Shown: piece by piece, positions 1,072 to 38,567 of the stretch | Layout: every line of letters begins with the position of its first letter | How positions within the stretch are numbered: position 1 is the first letter of the stretch | Source: a virus | Taxonomy: Duplodnaviria > Heunggongvirae > Uroviricota > Caudoviricetes | DNA length: 38,567 bases | IMG/VR virus record: IMGVR_UViG_2531839486_000019 | Location: 1 to 38,567 of that record | Reading direction: 5' to 3' (one strand) | Notes under the pieces: model-generated | What the model was told of the DNA's origin: nothing | Seen by the model: only the letters and a program-made list of their open reading frames with translations | Database searches by the model: none | Translations under genes and position numbers: made by a program

Positions 1072-1110
1072 TCGATGTTAGTAACTTCAATCCTATAATT
1101 CTTGAAGATA

Positions 1111-1143
1111 AAAAACCCTCTGTAGTAACAGAGGGTTTTGTTC
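1111..1143. terminator. bidirectional rho-independent terminator after the flank genes
   Basis: A-run, stem aaccctctg (1114-1122) / cagagggtt (1129-1137), loop tagtaa, then T-run. Confidence 0.6.
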
Positions 1144-1265
1144 ATTCATAGTGCAGGGTCAAATCATTCCCACTCAATTATTTACGGCTTACATAACCAA
1201 TTGACTGATAACAACTTTCCGCAACCTTATTTTCACCGTACCGTTTTATATACCGTCACCGGAAA

Positions 1266-1754
1266 TCAGTGCCCCATTTTCAGGGAGTCGTACTGCCGCT
1301 CGCATGTCAGTCCTGCAGAACGATATCGCTCAGCCTCTTCTGCTGCTGCGATGTAAGCTCGGTTGCTTTCTTCAAGCATGTCGGCGAGCACACCGATGAC
1401 CTTGCTGGCTGGCGTGCCAGCGGGGAAAGATCCGGTATAGTGTTCGGCGAGTCGCTTGGTTTTGTCAAGTTCGGCGCGCAGGCCGTCAGCAGCGGTATTA
1501 GCATGCTCAGCATCAACACGCGCCACATCGATACGGGATTGTGCTTCACGTTCAATTTGTGTTTTCTCCTGATCACGTTGTGCCCTGGCCTTATCATCAG
1601 CCTGTTTCTGATCTGCCTGTGCCTGCGCATACCCCGCATCGTACTGGCGGCTGCCGTGTACATTCCAGGCAACCACACCTCCGATGACAAGAGCAGCAAG
1701 CATCAACACGATAAGCAACTTTTTCCAGTACGCTTTGACGAGTGCCCAGATCAT
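1266..1754 (-). CDS. Rz-like inner-membrane spanin (i-spanin)
   Basis: ATG at 1752-1754 overlaps endolysin stop (1751-1753); N-terminal TM (LLIVLMLAALVIGGVVAW) then charged coiled coil; the track ORF extends further 5' as an artefact. Confidence 0.65.
   Translation of the reverse strand: MIWALVKAYWKKLLIVLMLAALVIGGVVAWNVHGSRQYDAGYAQAQADQKQADDKARAQRDQEKTQIEREAQSRIDVARVDAEHANTAADGLRAELDKTKRLAEHYTGSFPAGTPASKVIGVLADMLEESNRAYIAAAEEAERYRSAGLTCERQYDSLKMGH
1307..1528 (-). CDS. Rz1-like outer-membrane lipoprotein spanin (o-spanin), nested in the +1 frame of Rz
   Basis: internal ATG at 1526-1528; lipobox LLTAC followed by Pro-rich segment (PNLTKPSDSPNTIPDLSP); nested within the i-spanin gene. Confidence 0.45.
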   Translation of the reverse strand: MWRVLMLSMLIPLLTACAPNLTKPSDSPNTIPDLSPLARQPARSSVCSPTCLKKATELTSQQQKRLSDIVLQD

Positions 1755-2377
1755 AAAAGCACCTTGCTGGCGGTAATGTACCGCGCGCGACGGTCGTCGA
1801 TACCGTTCTGCCCACCATTGATGATCTGCGTGACGCGCACCAGGTCGCCGGTGTACTTCATGCAGCCTTTGGTTGCAAAGAACCACGCCGCGCTACGGGC
1901 CGCGTATTCGTCCTGCGCCAGCAGTTCCGGTTGTTTGACCAGATCCACCTTCAGGCCGTTGCCGCAGTCCCGGTAGTTGTTCAGGCCGGTGATCTGGATA
2001 AGCCCGCGCCCGCGGTAAAACCAGCCGTCGGTCGGCCCGTTATTCCCCATGCGTTTGCTGTACACCAGGTTGGCGATCGCACGCTGGCGTTCCAGTGGCA
2101 GTGACGGCTCACCAGCACGACGGCCCAGCGCGTTGGCCTGTCCCTGAGTGAGACGCCCGGCGCGGACGAATCCTGCCAGCCCGGTAACGCTGTAGTTAAA
2201 GTTCTCCTGAAGCCGGGTAAAGCCGCCTGACTCATGCCCCGCCTGCGCGATAAACATCGCCTGGTGCAGCGGCTGCTCAATACCAAACTCTTTCATAGCC
2301 GCGGTGATATGCAGATACCAGCGCGTGGCCAGTACGTCACTGATACCAGCGGCACGCTGGAATTGTTTAATGTCCAT
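1751..2377 (-). CDS. endolysin, glycoside hydrolase family 19 (chitinase-like lysozyme)
   Basis: FIAQAGHESGGF and GRGLIQITG motifs typical of GH19 phage endolysins; sits between holin-like and spanin genes. Confidence 0.85.
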   Translation of the reverse strand: MDIKQFQRAAGISDVLATRWYLHITAAMKEFGIEQPLHQAMFIAQAGHESGGFTRLQENFNYSVTGLAGFVRAGRLTQGQANALGRRAGEPSLPLERQRAIANLVYSKRMGNNGPTDGWFYRGRGLIQITGLNNYRDCGNGLKVDLVKQPELLAQDEYAARSAAWFFATKGCMKYTGDLVRVTQIINGGQNGIDDRRARYITASKVLL

Positions 2378-2660
2378 GCTGGGACCTCGTTATCTTGAAA
2401 ATTTGTACCACGTTCCCTTTTGTCTTGATGAGCGCAGCCAGGAACACGGCTTTGATGATGACTTCTGACCAGTCGGCGCTGACGTAGTAACCGTAGAAGG
2501 TTCGGATAGGTACGCTGGCGGCCACGACGATAAGCAGGTATGCGAGCCATCCACCCCACCAGCGATGGCGTGACCCGTCACGGCGGAACAGAAGCACTCG
2601 GATTGCAATGCCGCCGCAGATAGCGGCATTAAGGATGAGAAGAAGCTCAGGACTGGTCAT
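2367..2660 (-). CDS. holin-like small membrane protein
   Basis: 97 aa, 2-3 hydrophobic helices; ATG at 2658-2660; stop overlaps endolysin start by 11 nt. Confidence 0.55.
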   Translation of the reverse strand: MTSPELLLILNAAICGGIAIRVLLFRRDGSRHRWWGGWLAYLLIVVAASVPIRTFYGYYVSADWSEVIIKAVFLAALIKTKGNVVQIFKITRSQHGH

Positions 2661-3060
2661 CGTCTTTTCTCCCCGGGATCAGGTCGCGTGGATTTCCAGA
2701 ACGGTGATACAGCCAGGTACCGATACCAACAGCCACGATTGAAGAAACAAACGCCCCTGCTGAGTACGCTACCCCTTTCTCAAACATATCTGTGGTGATA
2801 CCAGGAAAAGCGGATGCAAAGCCGATGAGAAGTGTTGCTGTCGGTTTGTAGAAGAGAACTCCGCATAGGTAGCTGAGGAACGCCAGCAGTAACCGACGTT
2901 TAATCGGATACTCTACTGCTGAGGTAACAAAAATTACCGCACCAGCAAGCGAACCTAACGCCACCTCGGGAGGGACACCGACGACAACTGAAGCCATCGC
3001 ACCCAGACTAAGCCCCTGATTGAGTGACTCCGTTGTCAGCACATGTGCCATAGTGACCAC
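2647..3060 (-). CDS. membrane protein of the lysis cassette (second holin or antiholin candidate)
   Basis: 137 aa with several TM segments; stop overlaps next gene start by 14 nt; alternative start at Met4. Confidence 0.5.
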   Translation of the reverse strand: MVTMAHVLTTESLNQGLSLGAMASVVVGVPPEVALGSLAGAVIFVTSAVEYPIKRRLLLAFLSYLCGVLFYKPTATLLIGFASAFPGITTDMFEKGVAYSAGAFVSSIVAVGIGTWLYHRSGNPRDLIPGRKDDDQS

Positions 3061-3148
3061 CGTTTAATGTGCATAAAGAACCCCCTTAGTTGGTGAGTTC
3101 ATCATACACAATAAACCATATCTGGATTAATAATCACCAGATTTATCC

Positions 3149-3177
3149 TAGTCAAATTACCTTTTGGGTGATATAGT
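3149..3177 (+). promoter_or_regulatory. candidate promoter of the acyltransferase gene with operator-like dyad in the spacer
   Basis: -35-like TAGTCA (3149-3154), 17-bp spacer containing TTACC-TTTTG-GGTGA (3157-3171), -10 TATAGT (3172-3177). Confidence 0.4.
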
Positions 3178-3204
3178 TAATTTCTATACCCCCAAACATT
3201 TACC

Positions 3205-4215
3205 ATGAACATGAAAACATTAAATGGATTAACTATTTTCAGGTTTGTAGCTGCGTTTTATGTATTTATATTTCACTGCAATATCAGATTCCCAGCAGAA
3301 ATTGGTGATTTTCTAAACAGAATTGTTAAGAATGGTGCAATTGGAATGACATTCTTTTTTGTTCTGTCTGGTTTTGTCATGGCATGGTCATCGCAAGGTG
3401 GGGTGAAGTCTGATTATTTTGCGCGTCGCTTAAGGAGAATTTACCCAGCGTATATTTTTATGGGATTGGTGAGTCTCCCATTTATTATTGATTTAAAGCC
3501 ACAGCAAATCGTTCCATCTTTATTAATGTTCATTACTGGAACTCAGGCATGGATACCTTCTTCATTTTCACTATGGAACTTCATTGGTTCGTGGTCGGTA
3601 TCGACTGAGCTATTTTTTTATGCAACGTTCCCTATCTTGTTCCCATTGATTAAGAAAAGACCAGGGGCCTTTCTTCTTTCATCATTGGCTGTAACTTCAC
3701 TGCTGGTTCCGTTCTCTATAATGCTTGGGAGCGGCTCACAGTTCCCTTTGTTCTATGTCAGCCCAATCCACCGGCTACCTGAGTTTATCATTGGCGTATG
3801 CGCTGGGGTTTACTTTACCAATGGGATAAGGTTATCGCGTCGCAATAGTGTTCTCCTTATTGCATTATCATTATTAACATTAACAGTAATATCAACAAGA
3901 ATGAATTCTGGGTTTATGACTATGAATTTATTCACAGTCCCAGCCACTGCCATACTCATTTTTTCTCTTGCATCTTTAAATGTGAGAGATGATGGATTAG
4001 CGGCGCTTCCCATATACTTTGGAAAAATTAGCTACTCTTTCTATTTGATGCAGATACCATTGATAATGTTTATCGAAAAATATCATTACCTGTTTAATGA
4101 TATGAATACGTTATCATGCTGGGTAGGCATGTTTATAGCTAACACAATAATGGCATGCATATCTTATCACTTCGTAGAAGAAGCCTTTATGAAAATGAAA
4201 TACCAATCCGCCTAA
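3205..4215 (+). CDS. acyltransferase family 3 membrane protein (OafA/Oac-like O-antigen acetyltransferase candidate); lysogenic-conversion cargo
   Basis: 336 aa multi-TM protein with N-terminal acyltransferase-3 signature (FRFVAAFYVFIFHC, FFVLSGFV); opposite strand to late genes; AT-rich; next to tailspike. Confidence 0.8.
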   Translation: MNMKTLNGLTIFRFVAAFYVFIFHCNIRFPAEIGDFLNRIVKNGAIGMTFFFVLSGFVMAWSSQGGVKSDYFARRLRRIYPAYIFMGLVSLPFIIDLKPQQIVPSLLMFITGTQAWIPSSFSLWNFIGSWSVSTELFFYATFPILFPLIKKRPGAFLLSSLAVTSLLVPFSIMLGSGSQFPLFYVSPIHRLPEFIIGVCAGVYFTNGIRLSRRNSVLLIALSLLTLTVISTRMNSGFMTMNLFTVPATAILIFSLASLNVRDDGLAALPIYFGKISYSFYLMQIPLIMFIEKYHYLFNDMNTLSCWVGMFIANTIMACISYHFVEEAFMKMKYQSA

Positions 4216-4247
4216 AGTTAACACCCCCTCAATCGAGGGGGGCAAGA

Positions 4248-6536
4248 CTACAGTACAGGGGAAAGTGATACTCTTAACCCGGATGTAGACGATAGGGTTA
4301 AAGAACCAACAGCTTTGATATTGAGAATATCTCCAGTTGTAACAAATTTAACCATGTCTACCGTCTGCCCTGCGGAAGCATTCTCCTCAGAAGCTCCATT
4401 AATGCCAAAAGTTAACGATCCCGAAGATACCCCTCTGGCAAACACAGAAATTCTTACCAGCGCTGGTGCATTGAACTGAATAGTACCTCCGGATAACGCA
4501 GCGTTTGCCGTCCCATTTAACGAAGAGAATGTCACTTCTGCTCCAGATGCGAATGATGTTCCGGTTGTTACGGTTGTCTGACCAAACCCGACCATTCGGT
4601 TTTTAAAACGGTAAGAATCAAGGCTGGTCAAGCTGATATTAGAAAGTCGCGTATTTGCTGATATGTCAAGATATCCTCCAGATTCATTTATCACTCTTGT
4701 GTTAGCCGCATCAGCCAAAATAGTAGATGGCCTCAAGTTTAGCCTTCCTCCTGAAAGAACATGAATGATCCCCTCTGATGTCGAGTCTTGTGTGACATGA
4801 AAAATAGCGCTGAGATTAACATCGATATTTGAATTTGATCCTACGCGTAATATACAAGCAGCTGAACTTTCGCAAGATACATCTCCATAAAACCAACTAT
4901 TGGTTGTCTGAAAACAAGAAGGAGTTGGGGAGGAAGCGGTGTGTTTTTTTATATTTTCAAAAGTCACGCGTTCCAGCTTGCCATTGCCAAAATACTCAAC
5001 CTGCATACCGCGAGTATAACCATTAAATGACAGACGAAACGATACTGAGTTACCACAGTCAAGAGTCGTCGAAAAATGGTCAGCCCAAAGCCCAAAAGAC
5101 AAGACAGGATCGGAGGTTTCAGCAGCCAAGCCTACATGCCTTCCAGCTAATTTACCAAGGAACGCAACGTTAAATCTAATCCCCCCATTAAACCCCCGGC
5201 TGTCGATCTCAATGTCAAAGTCTGCCATATGAGGGGCATAAATCGCCCAGTCAGATTTCATACTTGATTGCAACGTAAAACCTTTGGCTACAATCCCCCT
5301 TGCGAAGGGGGTTGCAGCATTCTGCCGCTTAATGATGACCCCAGCATCCACATCAAAGGGTACAAGGTCACCAACACCAGGATAGGCAAGAGGAGGAATG
5401 CCACTGGTAGTGTTATCAACTTTCACAAATCTGGGTGTAAAAGCTGCATCACTACCTATTGTCATTCCTTCAATGTGATTGTAGTAATCAAGTACGATCG
5501 GTTTTTTATGATAAATAACAGATGTAATGTAAACAATTGAATAACCAAACCTAGATCGGGTAACTGCCTGTGCTATAAAAGCGTCATTTTGCTCTGCAAA
5601 TGATTCATCAATAATTTTTACACCGAATTGCTGAAAATTGTATGTATCCTTCTTCATAAGCCATGCAAATTTTGTTTCGTCGATAACTACTGACCCAGCA
5701 TCCGTATAGTCCTGAAGAGGTGCACCTTCGCTAATAATGTAATCCGCGCCACCTCCGTCGTTTGGCGTATAGTAGCCCAGCGTTCTGCACACCTTCCCGA
5801 CGGCTGGTGCAGTTGAGATCATATCAGCTACGTTCTGAAAGACGTTATCCACTCCACCGATCAGCAAAGACCCATGTGTTGCAGCAAGCTGTATAAGAAC
5901 ATCAGAGGCCGAACCAGAAGGAGGCAGTACGACAAATGGATTACCCGAACTGTCGAAGGCAATCATTTTGTTTGCCCTGGTAGCCGCATCAGGTAGCTGA
6001 GATATAGGATCTGGGACTCGTAACGTGCGACTAAAATTGTTGTTCGCCAGCGTATCAACATAATTCTTGGTGGCCGCATCCTGCGGGTCGCGCGGATCTC
6101 GAAGATTACGGATGTAGTTGTTAAGGGCGTCGTACCAGTTCGCAATGCTGGACGGTTTACGCAGCGCCAGGCGAAACATACTGTAGGCCTGCTGGATCAG
6201 CATCGTCAGCTTATCGAAAGCGTCTTCATGTACCTCAGCGAAGAACTTGCCCTGATTACGCAAATCAGTTTCCTGCGTAACCGGGAGGTCTCGTGATATA
6301 GAAATCTGATAACCGTTAGCCAACGCCTTCGACAGAATTACATTACCGCCGTTGTACCCTCCCGCACCAGTTACTGTGTAATCAGTATCAAGAGCCAGCA
6401 CAGCGATATTTTCATCAAGGTCAACCACCTGAACAACCAGGTCGGATTTTTTGAAAATACGGAAGGTATACGGAAATGATGTCGTAGCGCCGTTACCGGT
6501 GTATTCGTTGTGGTCAACTTCGGTTGAGACCGTCAT
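4248..6536 (-). CDS. tailspike / tail fiber with T7 gp17-like N-terminal anchor domain and large C-terminal receptor-binding (probable depolymerase) domain
   Basis: ATG 6534-6536 with RBS GGAGA 8 nt upstream; N-terminal ~110 aa resemble podovirus tail-fiber N-domain; C-terminal two-thirds AT-rich. Confidence 0.85.
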   Translation of the reverse strand: MTVSTEVDHNEYTGNGATTSFPYTFRIFKKSDLVVQVVDLDENIAVLALDTDYTVTGAGGYNGGNVILSKALANGYQISISRDLPVTQETDLRNQGKFFAEVHEDAFDKLTMLIQQAYSMFRLALRKPSSIANWYDALNNYIRNLRDPRDPQDAATKNYVDTLANNNFSRTLRVPDPISQLPDAATRANKMIAFDSSGNPFVVLPPSGSASDVLIQLAATHGSLLIGGVDNVFQNVADMISTAPAVGKVCRTLGYYTPNDGGGADYIISEGAPLQDYTDAGSVVIDETKFAWLMKKDTYNFQQFGVKIIDESFAEQNDAFIAQAVTRSRFGYSIVYITSVIYHKKPIVLDYYNHIEGMTIGSDAAFTPRFVKVDNTTSGIPPLAYPGVGDLVPFDVDAGVIIKRQNAATPFARGIVAKGFTLQSSMKSDWAIYAPHMADFDIEIDSRGFNGGIRFNVAFLGKLAGRHVGLAAETSDPVLSFGLWADHFSTTLDCGNSVSFRLSFNGYTRGMQVEYFGNGKLERVTFENIKKHTASSPTPSCFQTTNSWFYGDVSCESSAACILRVGSNSNIDVNLSAIFHVTQDSTSEGIIHVLSGGRLNLRPSTILADAANTRVINESGGYLDISANTRLSNISLTSLDSYRFKNRMVGFGQTTVTTGTSFASGAEVTFSSLNGTANAALSGGTIQFNAPALVRISVFARGVSSGSLTFGINGASEENASAGQTVDMVKFVTTGDILNIKAVGSLTLSSTSGLRVSLSPVL

Positions 6537-6614
6537 GTTAAATCTCCAGATAGTCGCAGCACCCGTTGCGCCGCATATCTGGTTATTCTATTACCTGAAA
6601 AACCACATATGGAT

Positions 6615-6656
6615 AGACAACCCATAAATAAGAACAGATATTACCTTTCAGGTGAT
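6615..6656 (+). promoter_or_regulatory. candidate promoter plus operator-like dyad upstream of the 85-aa plus-strand gene
   Basis: -35-like TAGACA (6615-6620), 17-bp spacer, -10-like GATATT (6638-6643) overlapping dyad TTACC-TTTCA-GGTGA (6642-6656). Confidence 0.4.
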
Positions 6657-6731
6657 TCGCAAAACGTGCTGGATAGCAAACAAATTATTTGCTACTGTAT
6701 AAATATACAGTTATTGCATGGAGAAGATAAG

Positions 6732-6989
6732 ATGCAGCAGTATCACTATCCACTGGAAGACGGATTTACCGAAAGGATTCACACGCCGGGAGGCGTCAGA
6801 TCACTAGTGGAGGGATCGCACTTGATGAAATTACTCCGGGATCTCGATAAGGATGGATTTAATGTCGATGGCCCACTTGCCGAACTGACTGCACTGATTA
6901 ACTACGTCACCAGCTCACAGATGTCTATGCAGGATCTGCAAACACATCTCGACTATTGTGCCGAACAATTACGAAAACAAACTACATAA
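6732..6989 (+). CDS. hypothetical 85-aa protein (cargo gene on opposite strand to late genes)
   Basis: internal ATG at 6732 preceded by GGAGAAG; the longer track ORF from 6609 lacks an RBS; TAA at 6987-6989. Confidence 0.5.
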   Translation: MQQYHYPLEDGFTERIHTPGGVRSLVEGSHLMKLLRDLDKDGFNVDGPLAELTALINYVTSSQMSMQDLQTHLDYCAEQLRKQTT

Positions 6990-6990
6990 A

Positions 6991-7012
6991 GAAAAGGCCG
7001 CGAAAGCGGCCT
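6991..7012 (-). terminator. rho-independent terminator acting on the minus strand
   Basis: stem aggccgc / gcggcct with GAAA loop; on the minus strand it is followed by TTTTCTTT. Confidence 0.5.
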
Positions 7013-7020
7013 GTGACATG

Positions 7021-7317
7021 TCACGTTCCTTTTCTGAATGCTAGCCATTCGAAAAATGATGACATTCCACCGCAGACAATAGCAAAGATGATCCCACCAA
7101 AGAAGAGAAGGCCAGCCTGCCACCACTCCCACCGCCATACATCCACAGCGCCAACCATACCAACAATCGCTCCAACAAATGGAATATAGCTCACGATGAA
7201 AGCAATGGGGGCTGCAATTATCCAGTGCAATCCCCACCATGATTCAAGCCCAGCCATAATTGCTGCCAACTGAAAAAGACCAACGACGATATAAACAATG
7301 AATCCTATAGCTTGCAT
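7021..7317 (-). CDS. small membrane protein (3 predicted TM helices), function unknown
   Basis: ATG at 7315-7317 with RBS AGGTGA; the N-terminal extension of the track ORF is unsupported; hydrophobic, Trp-rich. Confidence 0.5.
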   Translation of the reverse strand: MQAIGFIVYIVVGLFQLAAIMAGLESWWGLHWIIAAPIAFIVSYIPFVGAIVGMVGAVDVWRWEWWQAGLLFFGGIIFAIVCGGMSSFFEWLAFRKGT

Positions 7318-7513
7318 GTAGTCACCTAATTTACCCAGTAAAAATAAGAGGCCTCCCCTCAATAAGGCTTGCAACAAGAACGACTCCCTGCACAACAAAG
7401 ATGAACCAGCAAATAGCTTGAGTCTGAGGGTTAAGAAAATATTTGTAGCGGTCAATAAATAACAATCCACCAGAAATTATCACACTCAAAATAATTAAAA
7501 ACACAACACTTCC

Positions 7514-23919: not shown

Positions 23920-23996
23920 GTGGCATTAGCTCAGTTGGACAGAGCAACCGCCTTCTAAGCGGTTGGTCGCAGGTTCGAATCCTGCATGCCACGCCA
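23920..23996 (+). tRNA. tRNA-Arg (anticodon UCU), phage-encoded
   Basis: 77-nt cloverleaf: acceptor GTGGCAT/ATGCCAC, D-stem GCTC/GAGC, anticodon stem ACCGC/GCGGT with loop CTTCTAA, T-arm GCAGG-TTCGAAT-CCTGC, discriminator G, encoded CCA. Confidence 0.85.
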
Positions 23997-37316: not shown

Positions 37317-38567
37317 TTATTCCCCCGCCATCCATTTCTCAAACTTCGACGGGGAGAACGGAATCAGATCCGTATGCTCCCCGTCAATCCAGGAATCAAT
37401 CATATCGGCCCACTGCTGCAACATCCAGGCGCGCTGTCTGGCGTATTCCGCTTTGTTATATACGGCGCGCACACCTTTCTGCTCATGTGCCAGAGCCTTT
37501 TCAATCCAGTCTGAAGGATAACCAGCCTCATGCAATAACGTACTGGCTGTACGGCGCATATCGTGTACGGTGAAGTCCTGAATATGCTCACCATTTTCAT
37601 TTATTATTTTCACCGTTCTGTCGATCAGAGAGTTCAGCGCGGCATTAGATAATGGCTTCCGGAAGTTGTAACGACCAGGAACCAGATATTCACTTCCACC
37701 AGCGCACATCTGCAGCCCGACCAATATATCCTGTGCCTGTTTAGGCAGGTAAATAACGTGCGCCCGGCTTCCCTTCATGCGGTCTGAAGGAATTGTCCAT
37801 GTCCATTTTTTAAAATCTATTTCATCCCACGTTGCGTTGGTGAATTCGCCTTTACGAACCATAGTGATAAGCACCAGCTTTAAAGCCATTTTCATAGTGC
37901 CCATAGCACCAATGGCATCCAGCGTGCGGAAGAACAGGCCAATTTCTTCTGGTGTCAGTGTTCGCTCTCTTGGTTTAAATATGGCGATAGACGAAGGTTT
38001 AATGTCAGCCGCAGGATTAAACAAACCATGACCACGGTCATTGGCGTGACGGTATACGCTGCTGATGATCTCCCTTGCCTGTACTGCTGTTGCCCGACCA
38101 CCGCGTTCGACAATCCGGTCACACAAATCACGAACCATCGATGTGGTAATTTCAGTCATCATTTTGTTGCCAAGAACCGGAAGTATGTCACGGTCGATCA
38201 CCGCCTGCTTCATTGCGCGGGTACTGTCAGCCAGGATGACGTGTTTCATATAACTGTCGGTATGTACCGTAAACGTCTCGGCACCACGAATCTTTTTGAT
38301 ACCGTCACGTTTAGCCGCAGCCGGTGACTGGCCTGCTTTAAGCAGCTTCTTTGCAGCAATCAGTTCTTCTCGCGCTTCTGCCAGGCTGATACCGTCACGC
38401 CCATACTGCCCGATTACCAGTGTTTCGCGGCGACCGTTGATACGGTAGTCATAGCGAAACGAGACCGTACCTGACGTAAGCACAGCTACATACAGCCCGT
38501 CACGATCGGAAACTTTGTACAGTTTGTCCTGTGGCTTGAGGTTCTTTAATTTTGTATCGGTAAGCAC
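37317..38567 (-). CDS. int: tyrosine site-specific integrase (P4-like); 5' end at or just beyond the window edge
   Basis: 416 aa; N-terminus LTDTKLKNLKPQDKLYKVSDRDGLYV typical of integrase arm-binding domain; C-terminal catalytic region with HDMRRT and conserved Tyr; first codon GTG at window edge. Confidence 0.85.
   Translation of the reverse strand: MLTDTKLKNLKPQDKLYKVSDRDGLYVAVLTSGTVSFRYDYRINGRRETLVIGQYGRDGISLAEAREELIAAKKLLKAGQSPAAAKRDGIKKIRGAETFTVHTDSYMKHVILADSTRAMKQAVIDRDILPVLGNKMMTEITTSMVRDLCDRIVERGGRATAVQAREIISSVYRHANDRGHGLFNPAADIKPSSIAIFKPRERTLTPEEIGLFFRTLDAIGAMGTMKMALKLVLITMVRKGEFTNATWDEIDFKKWTWTIPSDRMKGSRAHVIYLPKQAQDILVGLQMCAGGSEYLVPGRYNFRKPLSNAALNSLIDRTVKIINENGEHIQDFTVHDMRRTASTLLHEAGYPSDWIEKALAHEQKGVRAVYNKAEYARQRAWMLQQWADMIDSWIDGEHTDLIPFSPSKFEKWMAGE

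What the first reader, a model, noticed from the sequence alone, without database searches (positions are those of the whole stretch)
3205..6536. AT-rich receptor-specificity locus: tailspike C-terminal domain plus a divergent acyltransferase-3 gene
The tailspike keeps a conserved T7 gp17-like N-terminal anchor (about 6200-6536) but its C-terminal two-thirds are markedly more AT-rich than the rest of the prophage. The divergently oriented acyltransferase-3 gene is also AT-rich. Together they look like a horizontally exchanged cassette in which the phage both recognises a surface polysaccharide and modifies it in the lysogen, as described for O-antigen acetyltransferases of epsilon15/phiV10-type phages.
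Basis: partly seen in the sequence, partly recalled or inferred. Interest (0 to 1): 0.5.

Follow-up and report, generated by a model that had tools for sequence, protein, structure and literature searches.

The report
Prophage tailspike plus O-antigen acetyltransferase cassette
An E. coli prophage related to phage phiV10 has swapped in a foreign two-gene unit, a sugar-cutting tailspike tip and a membrane acetyltransferase, that most likely lets the phage recognise one rare O-antigen and then alter it in the host it occupies; this is a new example of a well-known arrangement.

Summary
Window 3183-6053 has the lowest G+C in the window (0.42 against about 0.50). It is also the only stretch of this region that has no DNA homology to phiV10, in a prophage otherwise about 96% identical to it. 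The stretch holds a complete AT3-only acyltransferase (3205-4215, +) and the receptor-binding part of the tailspike (aa ~217-762 of 4248-6536, -). The two genes are convergent, not divergent. The gene order holin | oac | tailspike is exactly that of phiV10, but both swapped parts are unrelated to the phiV10 ones. The same two genes, in the same tail-to-tail order and also AT-rich, occur as one colinear 2.7-kb block (72% nt; 84% and 76% aa) in P22-like prophages of E. albertii and E. coli. The tailspike tip models confidently as a beta-helix depolymerase. Its family tracks a rare O-antigen gene cluster (E. albertii type EAOg37): five of the six complete E. coli genomes with that cluster carry it. 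The best reading is an O-antigen-specific tailspike paired with a seroconverting O-acetyltransferase that excludes superinfection, as in phiV10 and Sf6. The biochemistry is untested. This is a new member of a known kind, of moderate interest.

The parts
3061..3204 (+). AT-rich (0.34 G+C) intergenic region between the holin start and the acyltransferase start. It holds a candidate sigma-70 promoter, TAGTCA-17-TATAGT with an upstream TG, at 3149-3177. The left recombination boundary lies here: phiV10 homology ends at 3182.
   Evidence: The promoter match is 9 of 12 and is not more frequent than in shuffles, so it is only a candidate.
3205..4215 (+). AT3-only membrane acyltransferase (336 aa), a putative O-antigen O-acetyltransferase ('oac'). 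G+C is 0.375.
   Evidence: PF01757 at 97.5 bits, covering aa 7-321. phrog_3333 'O-acetyltransferase', E 9e-39. Conserved motifs R13-x10-H24, F51-F52-x-L54-S55-G56-F57, R75-x-x-R78 and W130/S131/E135 (motif definitions in PMC9558356). No similarity to phiV10 Oac. 76% identical to the acyltransferase next to the related tailspike in P22-like prophages.
4224..4241 (.). G+C-rich hairpin CCCCCTC-AATC-GAGGGGG between the two convergent stop codons. It is a candidate bidirectional terminator.
   Evidence: The E. coli P22-like version has a hairpin of different sequence (CCACCACCTC...GAGGTGGTGG) at the same place. Neither strand has a good T-run, so function is inferred.
4248..4640 (-). C-terminal domain of the tailspike (about aa 633-762), a C1q/TNF/BclA-like jelly roll. 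Boundaries are approximate.
   Evidence: The AlphaFold model matches BclA and C1q globular domains in Foldseek over about 130 residues, target TM 0.63-0.66.
4641..5888 (-). Receptor-binding and enzymatic body of the tailspike (about aa 217-632), a right-handed parallel beta-helix. G+C of the whole tip is 0.435 and GC3 is 0.36.
   Evidence: Model pLDDT 93.6, pTM 0.86. Best PDB matches are the Acinetobacter phage AS12 gp42 (6eu4) and Belisarius gp86 depolymerases, E about 2e-12, TM 0.59. Homology to the P22-like tailspike P0002 begins at aa 217. 24 homologues sit on P22-like, T7-like, TSP1-N-type and other anchors.
5889..6536 (-). Tailspike N-terminal anchor (aa 1-216), the particle-binding module conserved among phiV10/epsilon15-like phages.
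   Evidence: 74% identical to phiV10 gp25 aa 1-233. DNA matches in 552 of 5426 E. coli genomes are mostly to this part. Some E. coli prophages match down to 5872 (H29). PF03906 is below threshold. PDB Dpo31/Dpo36 N-termini, E 4e-27.
3183..6053 (.). The exchanged segment. It has no blastn homology to phiV10 and the lowest G+C in the window (0.419). Positions 3230-5876 inside it are colinear with the acyltransferase-tailspike block of P22-like prophages.

Best explanation
The locus is the host-specificity and seroconversion module of a phiV10-like (Uetakevirus) prophage integrated next to yfgI in E. coli.

The tailspike has two parts. A genus-conserved N-terminal anchor (aa 1-216) fixes it to the virion. 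A foreign beta-helix depolymerase body with a C-terminal jelly-roll domain (aa 217-762) binds and probably cleaves one particular O-antigen. That O-antigen is most likely made by the rare EAOg37-type gene cluster shared by E. coli and E. albertii.

The adjacent convergent gene encodes a 336-aa AT3-only membrane acyltransferase. Inference: it is transcribed on its own from the opposite strand in the lysogen. It carries an acetyl group across the inner membrane onto a sugar of that same O-antigen. The modified O-antigen is no longer a substrate for this tailspike, so further phages of the same specificity cannot adsorb (superinfection exclusion and serotype conversion).

The two genes were inherited as one AT-rich block. 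That block also occurs, diverged by about 28% in DNA, behind the tailspike anchor of P22-like prophages. Recombination took place at the anchor/receptor-binding junction (about aa 217) and upstream of the acyltransferase.

Shown: gene identities, mosaic breakpoints, composition, the shared block on two phage backbones, the predicted fold, and the association with the O-antigen cluster.

Inferred: enzymatic cleavage, acetylation of the O-antigen, expression in the lysogen, and exclusion.
For: Context:
- The flank is 99.9% identical to E. coli yfgH-yfgI.
- The prophage is about 96% identical to phiV10 over 80% of 25 kb.
- Gene order is identical to phiV10, whose oac is annotated as acetylating the host O-antigen and functioning in superinfection immunity (literature).

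Mosaic and composition:
- Breakpoints lie at 3182 and 6054.
- Composition shifts across the segment.

Shared block:
- A single colinear alignment, 3230-5876, matches P22-like prophages.
- Identity is even across both genes, 0.65-0.80 per 150 nt.
- The block is equally low in G+C in those hosts.

Proteins:
- The acyltransferase has a full-length PF01757 match and all published AT3 motifs.
- Relatives at about 53% identity sit convergent to tail-fibre genes in P2-like and Mu-like prophages.
- The tailspike tip models at pLDDT 93.6 and matches beta-helix depolymerases.

O-antigen link:
- Only 6 of 5426 complete E. coli genomes carry a given O-antigen wzx-wzy region, and 5 of these are among the 6 genomes carrying this receptor-binding family (Fisher p = 9e-16).
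- That cluster gives the EAOg37 in-silico PCR product of the expected 502 bp.
- The EAOg37 reference strain, E. albertii B156 (ADJH01), carries another member of the family in a P22-like prophage.
Against: - No experiment exists. Neither cleavage, acetylation nor exclusion was or could be tested here.
- The O-type of the window's own host is unknown, because the O-antigen cluster is outside the window.
- The O-antigen association was measured on relatives 65-84% identical in protein, not on this exact tailspike, and the E. coli carriers may be partly clonal.
- One carrier (JCKP02) lacks the cluster by megablast.
- Members of the family occur without any acyltransferase: PM4-5, B156, and T7-like and other lytic phages. 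The pairing is therefore not obligatory.
- The promoter-like site upstream of the acyltransferase is no better than chance, and there is no obvious Shine-Dalgarno sequence.
- AT3 enzymes also modify ECA, capsules and peptidoglycan, and the closest solved folds are capsule depolymerases.
Confidence: 0.7

Rival explanations
1. The acyltransferase is a lysogenic-conversion gene, but it acts on a different glycan or for a different purpose than blocking its own tailspike. Candidate targets are enterobacterial common antigen, a group 1/4 capsule, colanic acid or LPS core. Candidate purposes are defence against unrelated phages, or serum or immune evasion.
For: AT3-only proteins modify many substrates, for example WecH on ECA and IcaC on PNAG. 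There is no NCBIfam equivalog and no close characterised relative, at most 36% identity to any deposited phage gene. The receptor-binding family often occurs without an acyltransferase.
Against: The gene stays next to the same tailspike family across two unrelated phage backbones. Relatives sit next to tail-fibre genes in P2-like and Mu-like prophages. The same slot in phiV10 holds an O-antigen acetylase shown to give immunity.
Confidence: 0.15
2. The tailspike targets a capsule or another exopolysaccharide rather than the O-antigen. The link with the O-antigen cluster would then reflect clonal descent of the carrier strains.
For: The best structural matches are Acinetobacter and Klebsiella capsule depolymerases. 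The E. coli carriers were not tested for independence. PMC10408124 notes Uetakevirus receptor-binding proteins found across several serogroups.
Against: The association recurs with three different variants of the family and in two species. These are the 72%-nt variant with acyltransferase in four E. coli genomes, the 65%-nt variant in PM4-5, and the variant in E. albertii B156, the EAOg37 reference strain. Characterised Uetakevirus and Lederbergvirus tailspikes are O-antigen specific. Fold similarity among beta-helix depolymerases does not indicate substrate.
Confidence: 0.1
3. The tailspike tip and the acyltransferase were acquired separately. Their adjacency in two phage lineages would then be convergence on a favoured insertion slot, not inheritance as a unit.
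For: The slot between holin and tailspike is variable. It is empty in three E. coli prophages, holds an integrase fragment in ETEC4090, and holds an AT3-SGNH acetylase on the other strand in PAS61. The upstream regions of the acyltransferase are not homologous between the two backbones.
Against: One uninterrupted alignment spans both genes and the spacer with even divergence. Orientation and spacing are the same, and the hairpin position is the same. Both genes share the low G+C.
Confidence: 0.15
4. The low G+C is not a sign of foreign origin. It would follow from amino-acid composition (a membrane protein) or local mutation bias.
For: The acyltransferase is rich in Phe, Ile, Leu and Asn, whose codons are AT-rich. 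Codon positions 1 and 2 are also low, 0.365 and 0.383.
Against: Third positions are equally low (0.377, and 0.36 in the tailspike tip) against 0.51 in the anchor of the same gene. The boundaries coincide with loss of homology to sister phages. The homologous block is AT-rich in other backbones as well.
Confidence: 0.03

Closest known systems
Escherichia phage phiV10: tail fibre gp25 plus Oac (PhiV10p25 and PhiV10p26)
   Same: Same genus-level backbone, about 96% nt over most of the genome. Same gene order and orientations: holin (-), oac (+), tailspike (-). The tailspike anchor is 74% identical. The neighbour is an AT3-only acyltransferase of the same size, 338 against 336 aa.
   Different: The receptor-binding part is unrelated, and the acyltransferase shows no BLASTP similarity (E 4.9; 15% identity in the alignment). 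phiV10 is specific for O157. This locus tracks an EAOg37-type O-antigen cluster instead.
P22-like (Lederbergvirus-type) prophages at argW in E. coli E21845/O/A, JCKP02, fS25a, PRO_A-1443 and OU342919, and in E. albertii GCA_037910825.1
   Same: They carry the homologous two-gene block, colinear at 72% nt, with the tailspike tip 84% and the acyltransferase 76% identical in protein. The arrangement is the same convergent one, with a hairpin between the stops and the same low G+C.
   Different: The N-terminal anchor is a P22 head-binding domain (PF09008). The acyltransferase lies next to the integrase rather than next to a holin. The E. albertii copy has an in-frame stop at Q283.
Shigella phage Sf6 Oac and Salmonella BTP1 GtrC (seroconverting acetyltransferases that block the phage's own tailspike)
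   Same: Each is an AT3-family enzyme encoded beside a beta-helix O-antigen-cleaving tailspike in a temperate podovirus. Acetylation sterically hinders the tailspike and gives immunity to superinfection (literature quoted). The RXXR and R/K-x10-H motifs are present here.
   Different: No close sequence relationship was found, at most 36% identity to any AT3 in deposited phages. The substrate sugar and position are unknown here, and the activity is untested.
Acinetobacter phage AS12 gp42 (PDB 6eu4) and Belisarius gp86 tailspike depolymerases
   Same: They are the best structural matches to the modelled tip, E about 2e-12, TM 0.59, rmsd 4.4 A over 443 columns for 6eu4. AS12's depolymerase is a hydrolytic glycosidase.
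   Different: Only 16% sequence identity. They are capsule-specific, come from lytic Friunavirus phages and use a different anchor.

Membership tests
Acyltransferase-3 (AT3, PF01757), AT3-only O-antigen acetyltransferases | Full-length match to PF01757 above the gathering score | tested here: met
   97.5 bits against 31, aa 7-321 on profile positions 2-325 of 326.
Acyltransferase-3 (AT3, PF01757), AT3-only O-antigen acetyltransferases | R/K-x10-H motif in the first transmembrane helix | tested here: met
   R13 and H24 are invariant in a 40-sequence alignment that includes phiV10 Oac. The motif is as described in PMC9558356.
Acyltransferase-3 (AT3, PF01757), AT3-only O-antigen acetyltransferases | RXXR motif in the first cytoplasmic loop and the V-x-x-F-F-x-(I/V/L)-S-G-(F/W/Y) motif | tested here: met
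   R75 is invariant and R78 is conserved in at least 90% of sequences. The sequence reads M48-T-F-F51-F52-V-L54-S55-G56-F57, so only the first V is replaced by M.
Acyltransferase-3 (AT3, PF01757), AT3-only O-antigen acetyltransferases | About ten transmembrane helices and no fused SGNH domain | tested here: inconclusive
   The protein is 336 aa with no second domain. A crude hydropathy scan gives seven clear hydrophobic peaks plus weaker ones. No dedicated topology predictor was available.
Acyltransferase-3 (AT3, PF01757), AT3-only O-antigen acetyltransferases | O-acetylation of the O-antigen repeat unit | not testable with these tools
   Needs NMR or mass spectrometry of LPS from the lysogen and from a deletion mutant.
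Orthologue of phiV10 Oac | Detectable sequence similarity to PhiV10p26 | tested here: not met
   Best BLASTP E-value is 4.9, and identity in the multiple alignment is 15%. It occupies the same slot but is a different AT3 lineage.
Uetakevirus (phiV10/epsilon15-like) tailspike | N-terminal anchor homologous to phiV10 gp25 / epsilon15 gp20, in the conserved position after the virion genes | tested here: met
   74% identity over aa 1-233. Synteny is shown. Phage and E. coli prophage matches to this part are.
Phage T7 gp17 N-terminal domain (PF03906) | Match above Pfam's gathering score | tested here: inconclusive
   19.4 bits against a cut-off of 25.2, although the match covers profile positions 9-155 of 157. 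A T7-like phage tailspike of the same receptor-binding family (P0008) does carry PF03906.
Right-handed parallel beta-helix tailspike depolymerases | Beta-helix fold of the receptor-binding body | tested here: met
   Model pLDDT 93.6 and pTM 0.86. 47 PDB matches at E <= 1e-3; apart from hits to the C-terminal jelly-roll domain these are phage tailspikes or depolymerases, with 6eu4 and 24qi on top. This rests on prediction, not on a solved structure.
Right-handed parallel beta-helix tailspike depolymerases | Trimeric assembly and glycan-cleaving activity with identified catalytic acids | not tested
   Only a monomer was modelled. Invariant acidic residues exist (model numbering D162, D164, D206, E294, E323), but none was mapped to an active site.
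Prophage seroconversion / superinfection-exclusion modules (phiV10 oac, Sf6 oac, BTP1 gtrC) | O-antigen-modifying gene encoded next to the tailspike of a temperate phage | tested here: met
   The arrangement is described as recurrent in Lederbergviruses and Uetakeviruses in PMC10408124.
Prophage seroconversion / superinfection-exclusion modules (phiV10 oac, Sf6 oac, BTP1 gtrC) | Expression in the lysogen and loss of adsorption of the same phage | not testable with these tools
   Only a chance-level promoter-like site was found.

The most novel reading that the evidence does not exclude
The tailspike tip and its matching acetyltransferase form a mobile 'specificity plus immunity' unit. The unit moves as one piece between unrelated temperate phage genera (P22-like and phiV10-like) and between E. 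coli and E. albertii, following one rare shared O-antigen (EAOg37 type). If so, the acetyltransferase's sugar specificity is co-adapted to the neighbouring tailspike. It also means prophage tailspike-acetylase pairs could be read as predictors of both the O-antigen type and its modified form.
Probability: 0.5. Interest if true: 0.45.

Novelty: new member of a known kind. Interest (0 to 1): 0.35.

Why it matters
Tailspike-plus-acetylase modules decide which strains a temperate phage can infect, and they change the serotype of the lysogen. This one is absent from about 50,700 deposited phage genomes, apart from a 49%-identical Aeromonas tailspike. It is also rare in complete E. coli genomes.

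It appears to mark an O-antigen type (EAOg37-like) that Ooka et al. (2019) found had no counterpart among the E. coli and Shigella O-serotypes known to them. If the assignment is confirmed:
- The tailspike would be a ready-made probe or depolymerase for that O-type.
- The acetyltransferase would define a modified sub-serotype.
- The shared block on two phage backbones would be a clean example of a receptor-recognition gene and a receptor-masking gene travelling together.

None of this changes current understanding of how such systems work.

Tried and rejected
- A scan of genome contigs (one genome per species) with the receptor-binding alignment found nothing.
- Viral contigs gave only the window's own sequence and one 63% relative in a lytic-type phage without an acyltransferase.
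- NCBIfam has no model for either protein. PDB sequence search finds nothing for the acyltransferase and only the anchor for the tailspike.
- Naming the O-serogroup failed by three routes: strain-name literature search (noise only), the E. coli O-antigen review, and source names of Wzx, Wzy and a glycosyltransferase. It succeeded only through the E. albertii O-genotyping primers.
- Promoter and terminator scans gave nothing above chance for promoters. The hairpin between the genes lacks a T-run.
- I rejected the idea that the low G+C is compositional only.
- I also rejected orthology with phiV10 Oac.


Full report
**What is there**

The finding's coordinates are exactly two ORFs: 3205-4215 (+, 336 aa) and 4248-6536 (-, 762 aa). 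Their stop codons face each other across 32 bp, so the genes are convergent. The acyltransferase is divergent only from the holin gene that starts at 3060. The first protein matches Pfam Acyl_transf_3 over its whole length (97.5 bits, cut-off 31) and PHROG 'O-acetyltransferase'. The second matches many PHROG tail-protein families through its first 160-290 residues. It also matches one 762-residue PHROG of unknown function over its full length (1820 bits), so this exact protein has been seen in a phage or prophage set before.

**Composition**

| Segment | G+C | GC3 |
|---|---|---|
| Acyltransferase | 0.375 | 0.377 |
| Tailspike aa 234-762 | 0.435 | 0.36 |
| Tailspike aa 1-233 | 0.491 | 0.51 |
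| Rest of prophage | 0.50 | n/a |

The acyltransferase is low at all three codon positions. The segment 3183-6053 scores 0.419 and contains the minimum of the whole window. Eleven non-overlapping windows of the same size elsewhere lie between 0.470 and 0.524. It is strong for the acyltransferase and moderate for the tailspike tip.

**Context**

- Bases 1-1150 are 99.9% identical to E. coli yfgH-yfgI.
- The rest is a prophage about 96% identical to phiV10 and its relatives (genus Uetakevirus) over about 80% of the first 25 kb.
- phiV10 has the same order and orientations: holins (-), oac (+), tail fibre (-). Its oac is annotated as acetylating the host O-antigen and acting in superinfection immunity.
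- The arrangement is recognised in the literature. [quoted passage not shown]

**Mosaic breakpoints**

- Blastn against phiV10 gives 75% identity for the lysis genes up to 3182, nothing from 3183 to 6053, 88% for 6054-6989 and 98% for the virion genes beyond 7511.
- The window acyltransferase has no BLASTP similarity to phiV10 Oac.
- The tailspikes are 74% identical over aa 1-233 and unrelated afterwards.
- Among 5426 complete E. coli genomes, 552 match parts of 3000-6700. These matches are essentially to the anchor and the holin side, and none covers 80% of the query.
- The slot between holin and tailspike is variable. It is empty in three prophages, holds an integrase fragment in ETEC4090, and holds an AT3-SGNH acetylase on the tailspike strand in phage PAS61.

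**The same two genes on another backbone**

- The tailspike tip has only 24 homologues among 5.8 billion clusters. The closest (84%) is a P22-like tailspike of E. albertii carrying a head-binding domain. Others carry Tail_spike_N or T7-type anchors, and one is from an Aeromonas phage.
- In the E. albertii prophage, the gene immediately after the tailspike, and convergent to it, is an AT3 acyltransferase 76% identical to the window's.
- At DNA level one uninterrupted alignment (window 3230-5876, 72%) spans the acyltransferase, the spacer and the tailspike tip.
- Five complete E. coli genomes have the same P22-like version with an intact 344-aa acyltransferase, integrated at argW.
- Identity is even across the block (0.65-0.80 per 150 nt) and collapses at both ends.
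- The block is AT-rich in those hosts too: acyltransferase 0.35-0.36 and tip 0.395, against a backbone of 0.50.
- Homology with the P22-like tailspike starts at aa 217, which is where similarity to phiV10 fades.
- Both versions have a G+C-rich hairpin of different sequence between the stop codons.
- The E. albertii copy carries an in-frame stop at the nearly invariant Q283.
- More distant members of the family in lytic or other prophage contexts have no acyltransferase.

**The proteins**

Tailspike tip:
- AlphaFold2 on a 23-sequence alignment gives a confident model (pLDDT 93.6, pTM 0.86): a right-handed beta-helix followed by a jelly-roll domain.
- Foldseek against the PDB puts the Acinetobacter phage depolymerases AS12 gp42 (6eu4) and Belisarius gp86 first (E about 2e-12, TM 0.59). 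Klebsiella, CBA120 and Sf6 tailspikes follow. The C-terminal ~130 residues match BclA/C1q-type domains.
- AS12's enzyme is a hydrolytic glycosidase (PMC8092837). This suggests a mechanism but does not show one.

Acyltransferase:
- It keeps the motifs described for functional AT3 enzymes: R13-x10-H24, FFxLSGF at 51-57, R75-x-x-R78, and W130/S131/E135.
- Its relatives at about 53% identity lie convergent to tail-fibre genes in P2-like and Mu-like prophages and in a prophage remnant. This AT3 lineage is therefore phage-borne and tail-gene-associated.
- No deposited phage has a copy above 36% identity.

**Which receptor**

- In E. coli E21845/O/A the O-antigen cluster between galF and gnd encodes rmlBDAC, a 3,4-ketoisomerase/acetylase/aminotransferase set (predicting L-Rha and Fuc3NAc or Qui3NAc), wzx, a wzy-like gene and glycosyltransferases.
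- Its wzx-to-glycosyltransferase segment occurs in only 6 of 5426 complete genomes. Five of those six are among the six genomes that carry this receptor-binding family (Fisher p = 9e-16). Clonality was not controlled for.
- The exceptions are EC100, which has the cluster but no such prophage, and JCKP02, which has the prophage but no cluster match.
- The published E. albertii O-genotyping primers for EAOg37 hit this wzx with 0 and 2 mismatches and give the expected 502-bp product. None of the other 36 primer pairs tested hits.
- EAOg37 had no counterpart among the E. coli and Shigella O-serotypes known in 2019.
- Its reference strain, E. albertii B156 (ADJH01), is the genome in which a further member of the family (65%) sits in a P22-like prophage.
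- The O-antigen cluster has 0.35 G+C, similar to the cassette.
- The link between this tailspike family and the EAOg37-type O-antigen therefore recurs with three sequence variants and in two species. This argues for the O-antigen as receptor. The O-type of the window's own host could not be checked.

**Mechanism**

Shown:
- A phiV10-type prophage carries a foreign, AT-rich block.
- The block encodes a beta-helix tailspike tip and an intact AT3 acyltransferase.
- The same block is shared with P22-like prophages.

Inferred:
- The tip binds and cleaves the EAOg37-type O-antigen during adsorption.
- In the lysogen the acyltransferase is transcribed from the AT-rich region 3061-3204, independently of the late operon on the other strand.
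- It O-acetylates a sugar of the same O-antigen.
- This blocks the tailspike and so prevents superinfection, as documented for phiV10 Oac, Sf6 Oac and BTP1 GtrC.

I put this at about 0.7. Three rivals remain open at 0.1-0.15 each: another glycan target for the acyltransferase, a capsule receptor, and separate acquisition of the two genes. A purely compositional explanation of the low G+C is effectively excluded.

**Comparison and novelty**

- It works like the phiV10 oac-tailspike pair and sits in the same place, but neither swapped part is an orthologue of the phiV10 one.
- It is a member of the AT3 family and of the beta-helix tailspike class. T7 gp17-type membership of the anchor is below Pfam's threshold.
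- The kind of system is well known. What is new is this particular pair, its likely receptor, and evidence that tip and acetylase are inherited together across two phage genera. The call is 'new member of a known kind', with interest about 0.35.

**Limits**

- All functional statements are inferences from homology, predicted structure and genomic association.
- The association was measured on relatives of the window's tailspike.
- Independence of the E. coli carriers was not established.
- No promoter could be supported statistically.

Noticed in passing
window 1266-3060: The lysis cassette (spanin, GH19 endolysin, two holins) is G+C-rich (endolysin 0.60, GC3 0.73). It is only about 75% identical to phiV10, while the virion genes beyond 7511 are 98% identical. 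This is a second mosaic block, skewed the opposite way from the cassette.
   Followed up: partly
window 6989-7510: phiV10's Bro-N antirepressor-type genes (p21-p23) are absent here. Instead there is a 149-aa ORF (7021-7470, phrog_3075, unknown function). The upstream ORF 6609-6989 is 126 aa by the ORF lister against 85 aa annotated in phiV10 and its relatives.
   Followed up: no
L005:10050-11081 (E. albertii GCA_037910825.1): The homologous acyltransferase next to the 84%-identical tailspike has a single in-frame stop at the nearly invariant Q283 and is otherwise colinear to the last residue. It may be a recently inactivated seroconversion gene.
   Followed up: yes
L024 (E. coli E21845/O/A, NZ_CP076272.1 2320345-2332343): E. 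coli genomes carry an O-antigen cluster that types as E. albertii EAOg37 by in-silico PCR. Ooka et al. (2019) reported EAOg37 as having no E. coli counterpart. It is present in only 6 of 5426 complete E. coli genomes.
   Followed up: partly
NZ_CP195759.1 (JCKP02) and NZ_CP182308.1 (EC100): These are the two exceptions to the tailspike/O-antigen link. JCKP02 has the P22-like tailspike-acyltransferase block but no megablast match to the EAOg37-like cluster. EC100 has the cluster but no such prophage, which makes it a possible indicator strain.
   Followed up: no
window 4224-4241 and L022 about 5990-6040: The hairpin between the convergent stop codons keeps its position, but its sequence differs completely between the phiV10-like and P22-like versions (CCCCCTC/GAGGGGG against CCACCACCTC/GAGGTGGTGG). 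This suggests selection for the structure.
   Followed up: partly
window 23920-23996: A single tRNA-Arg (anticodon TCT) lies inside the prophage, as annotated in related O157 typing phages.
   Followed up: no
window 1072-1265: The prophage end abuts yfgI, at the same chromosomal site as the phiV10-like prophage of E. coli ETEC4090. The integrase-like ORF at 37317-38567 reaches the right-hand end of the window.
   Followed up: no
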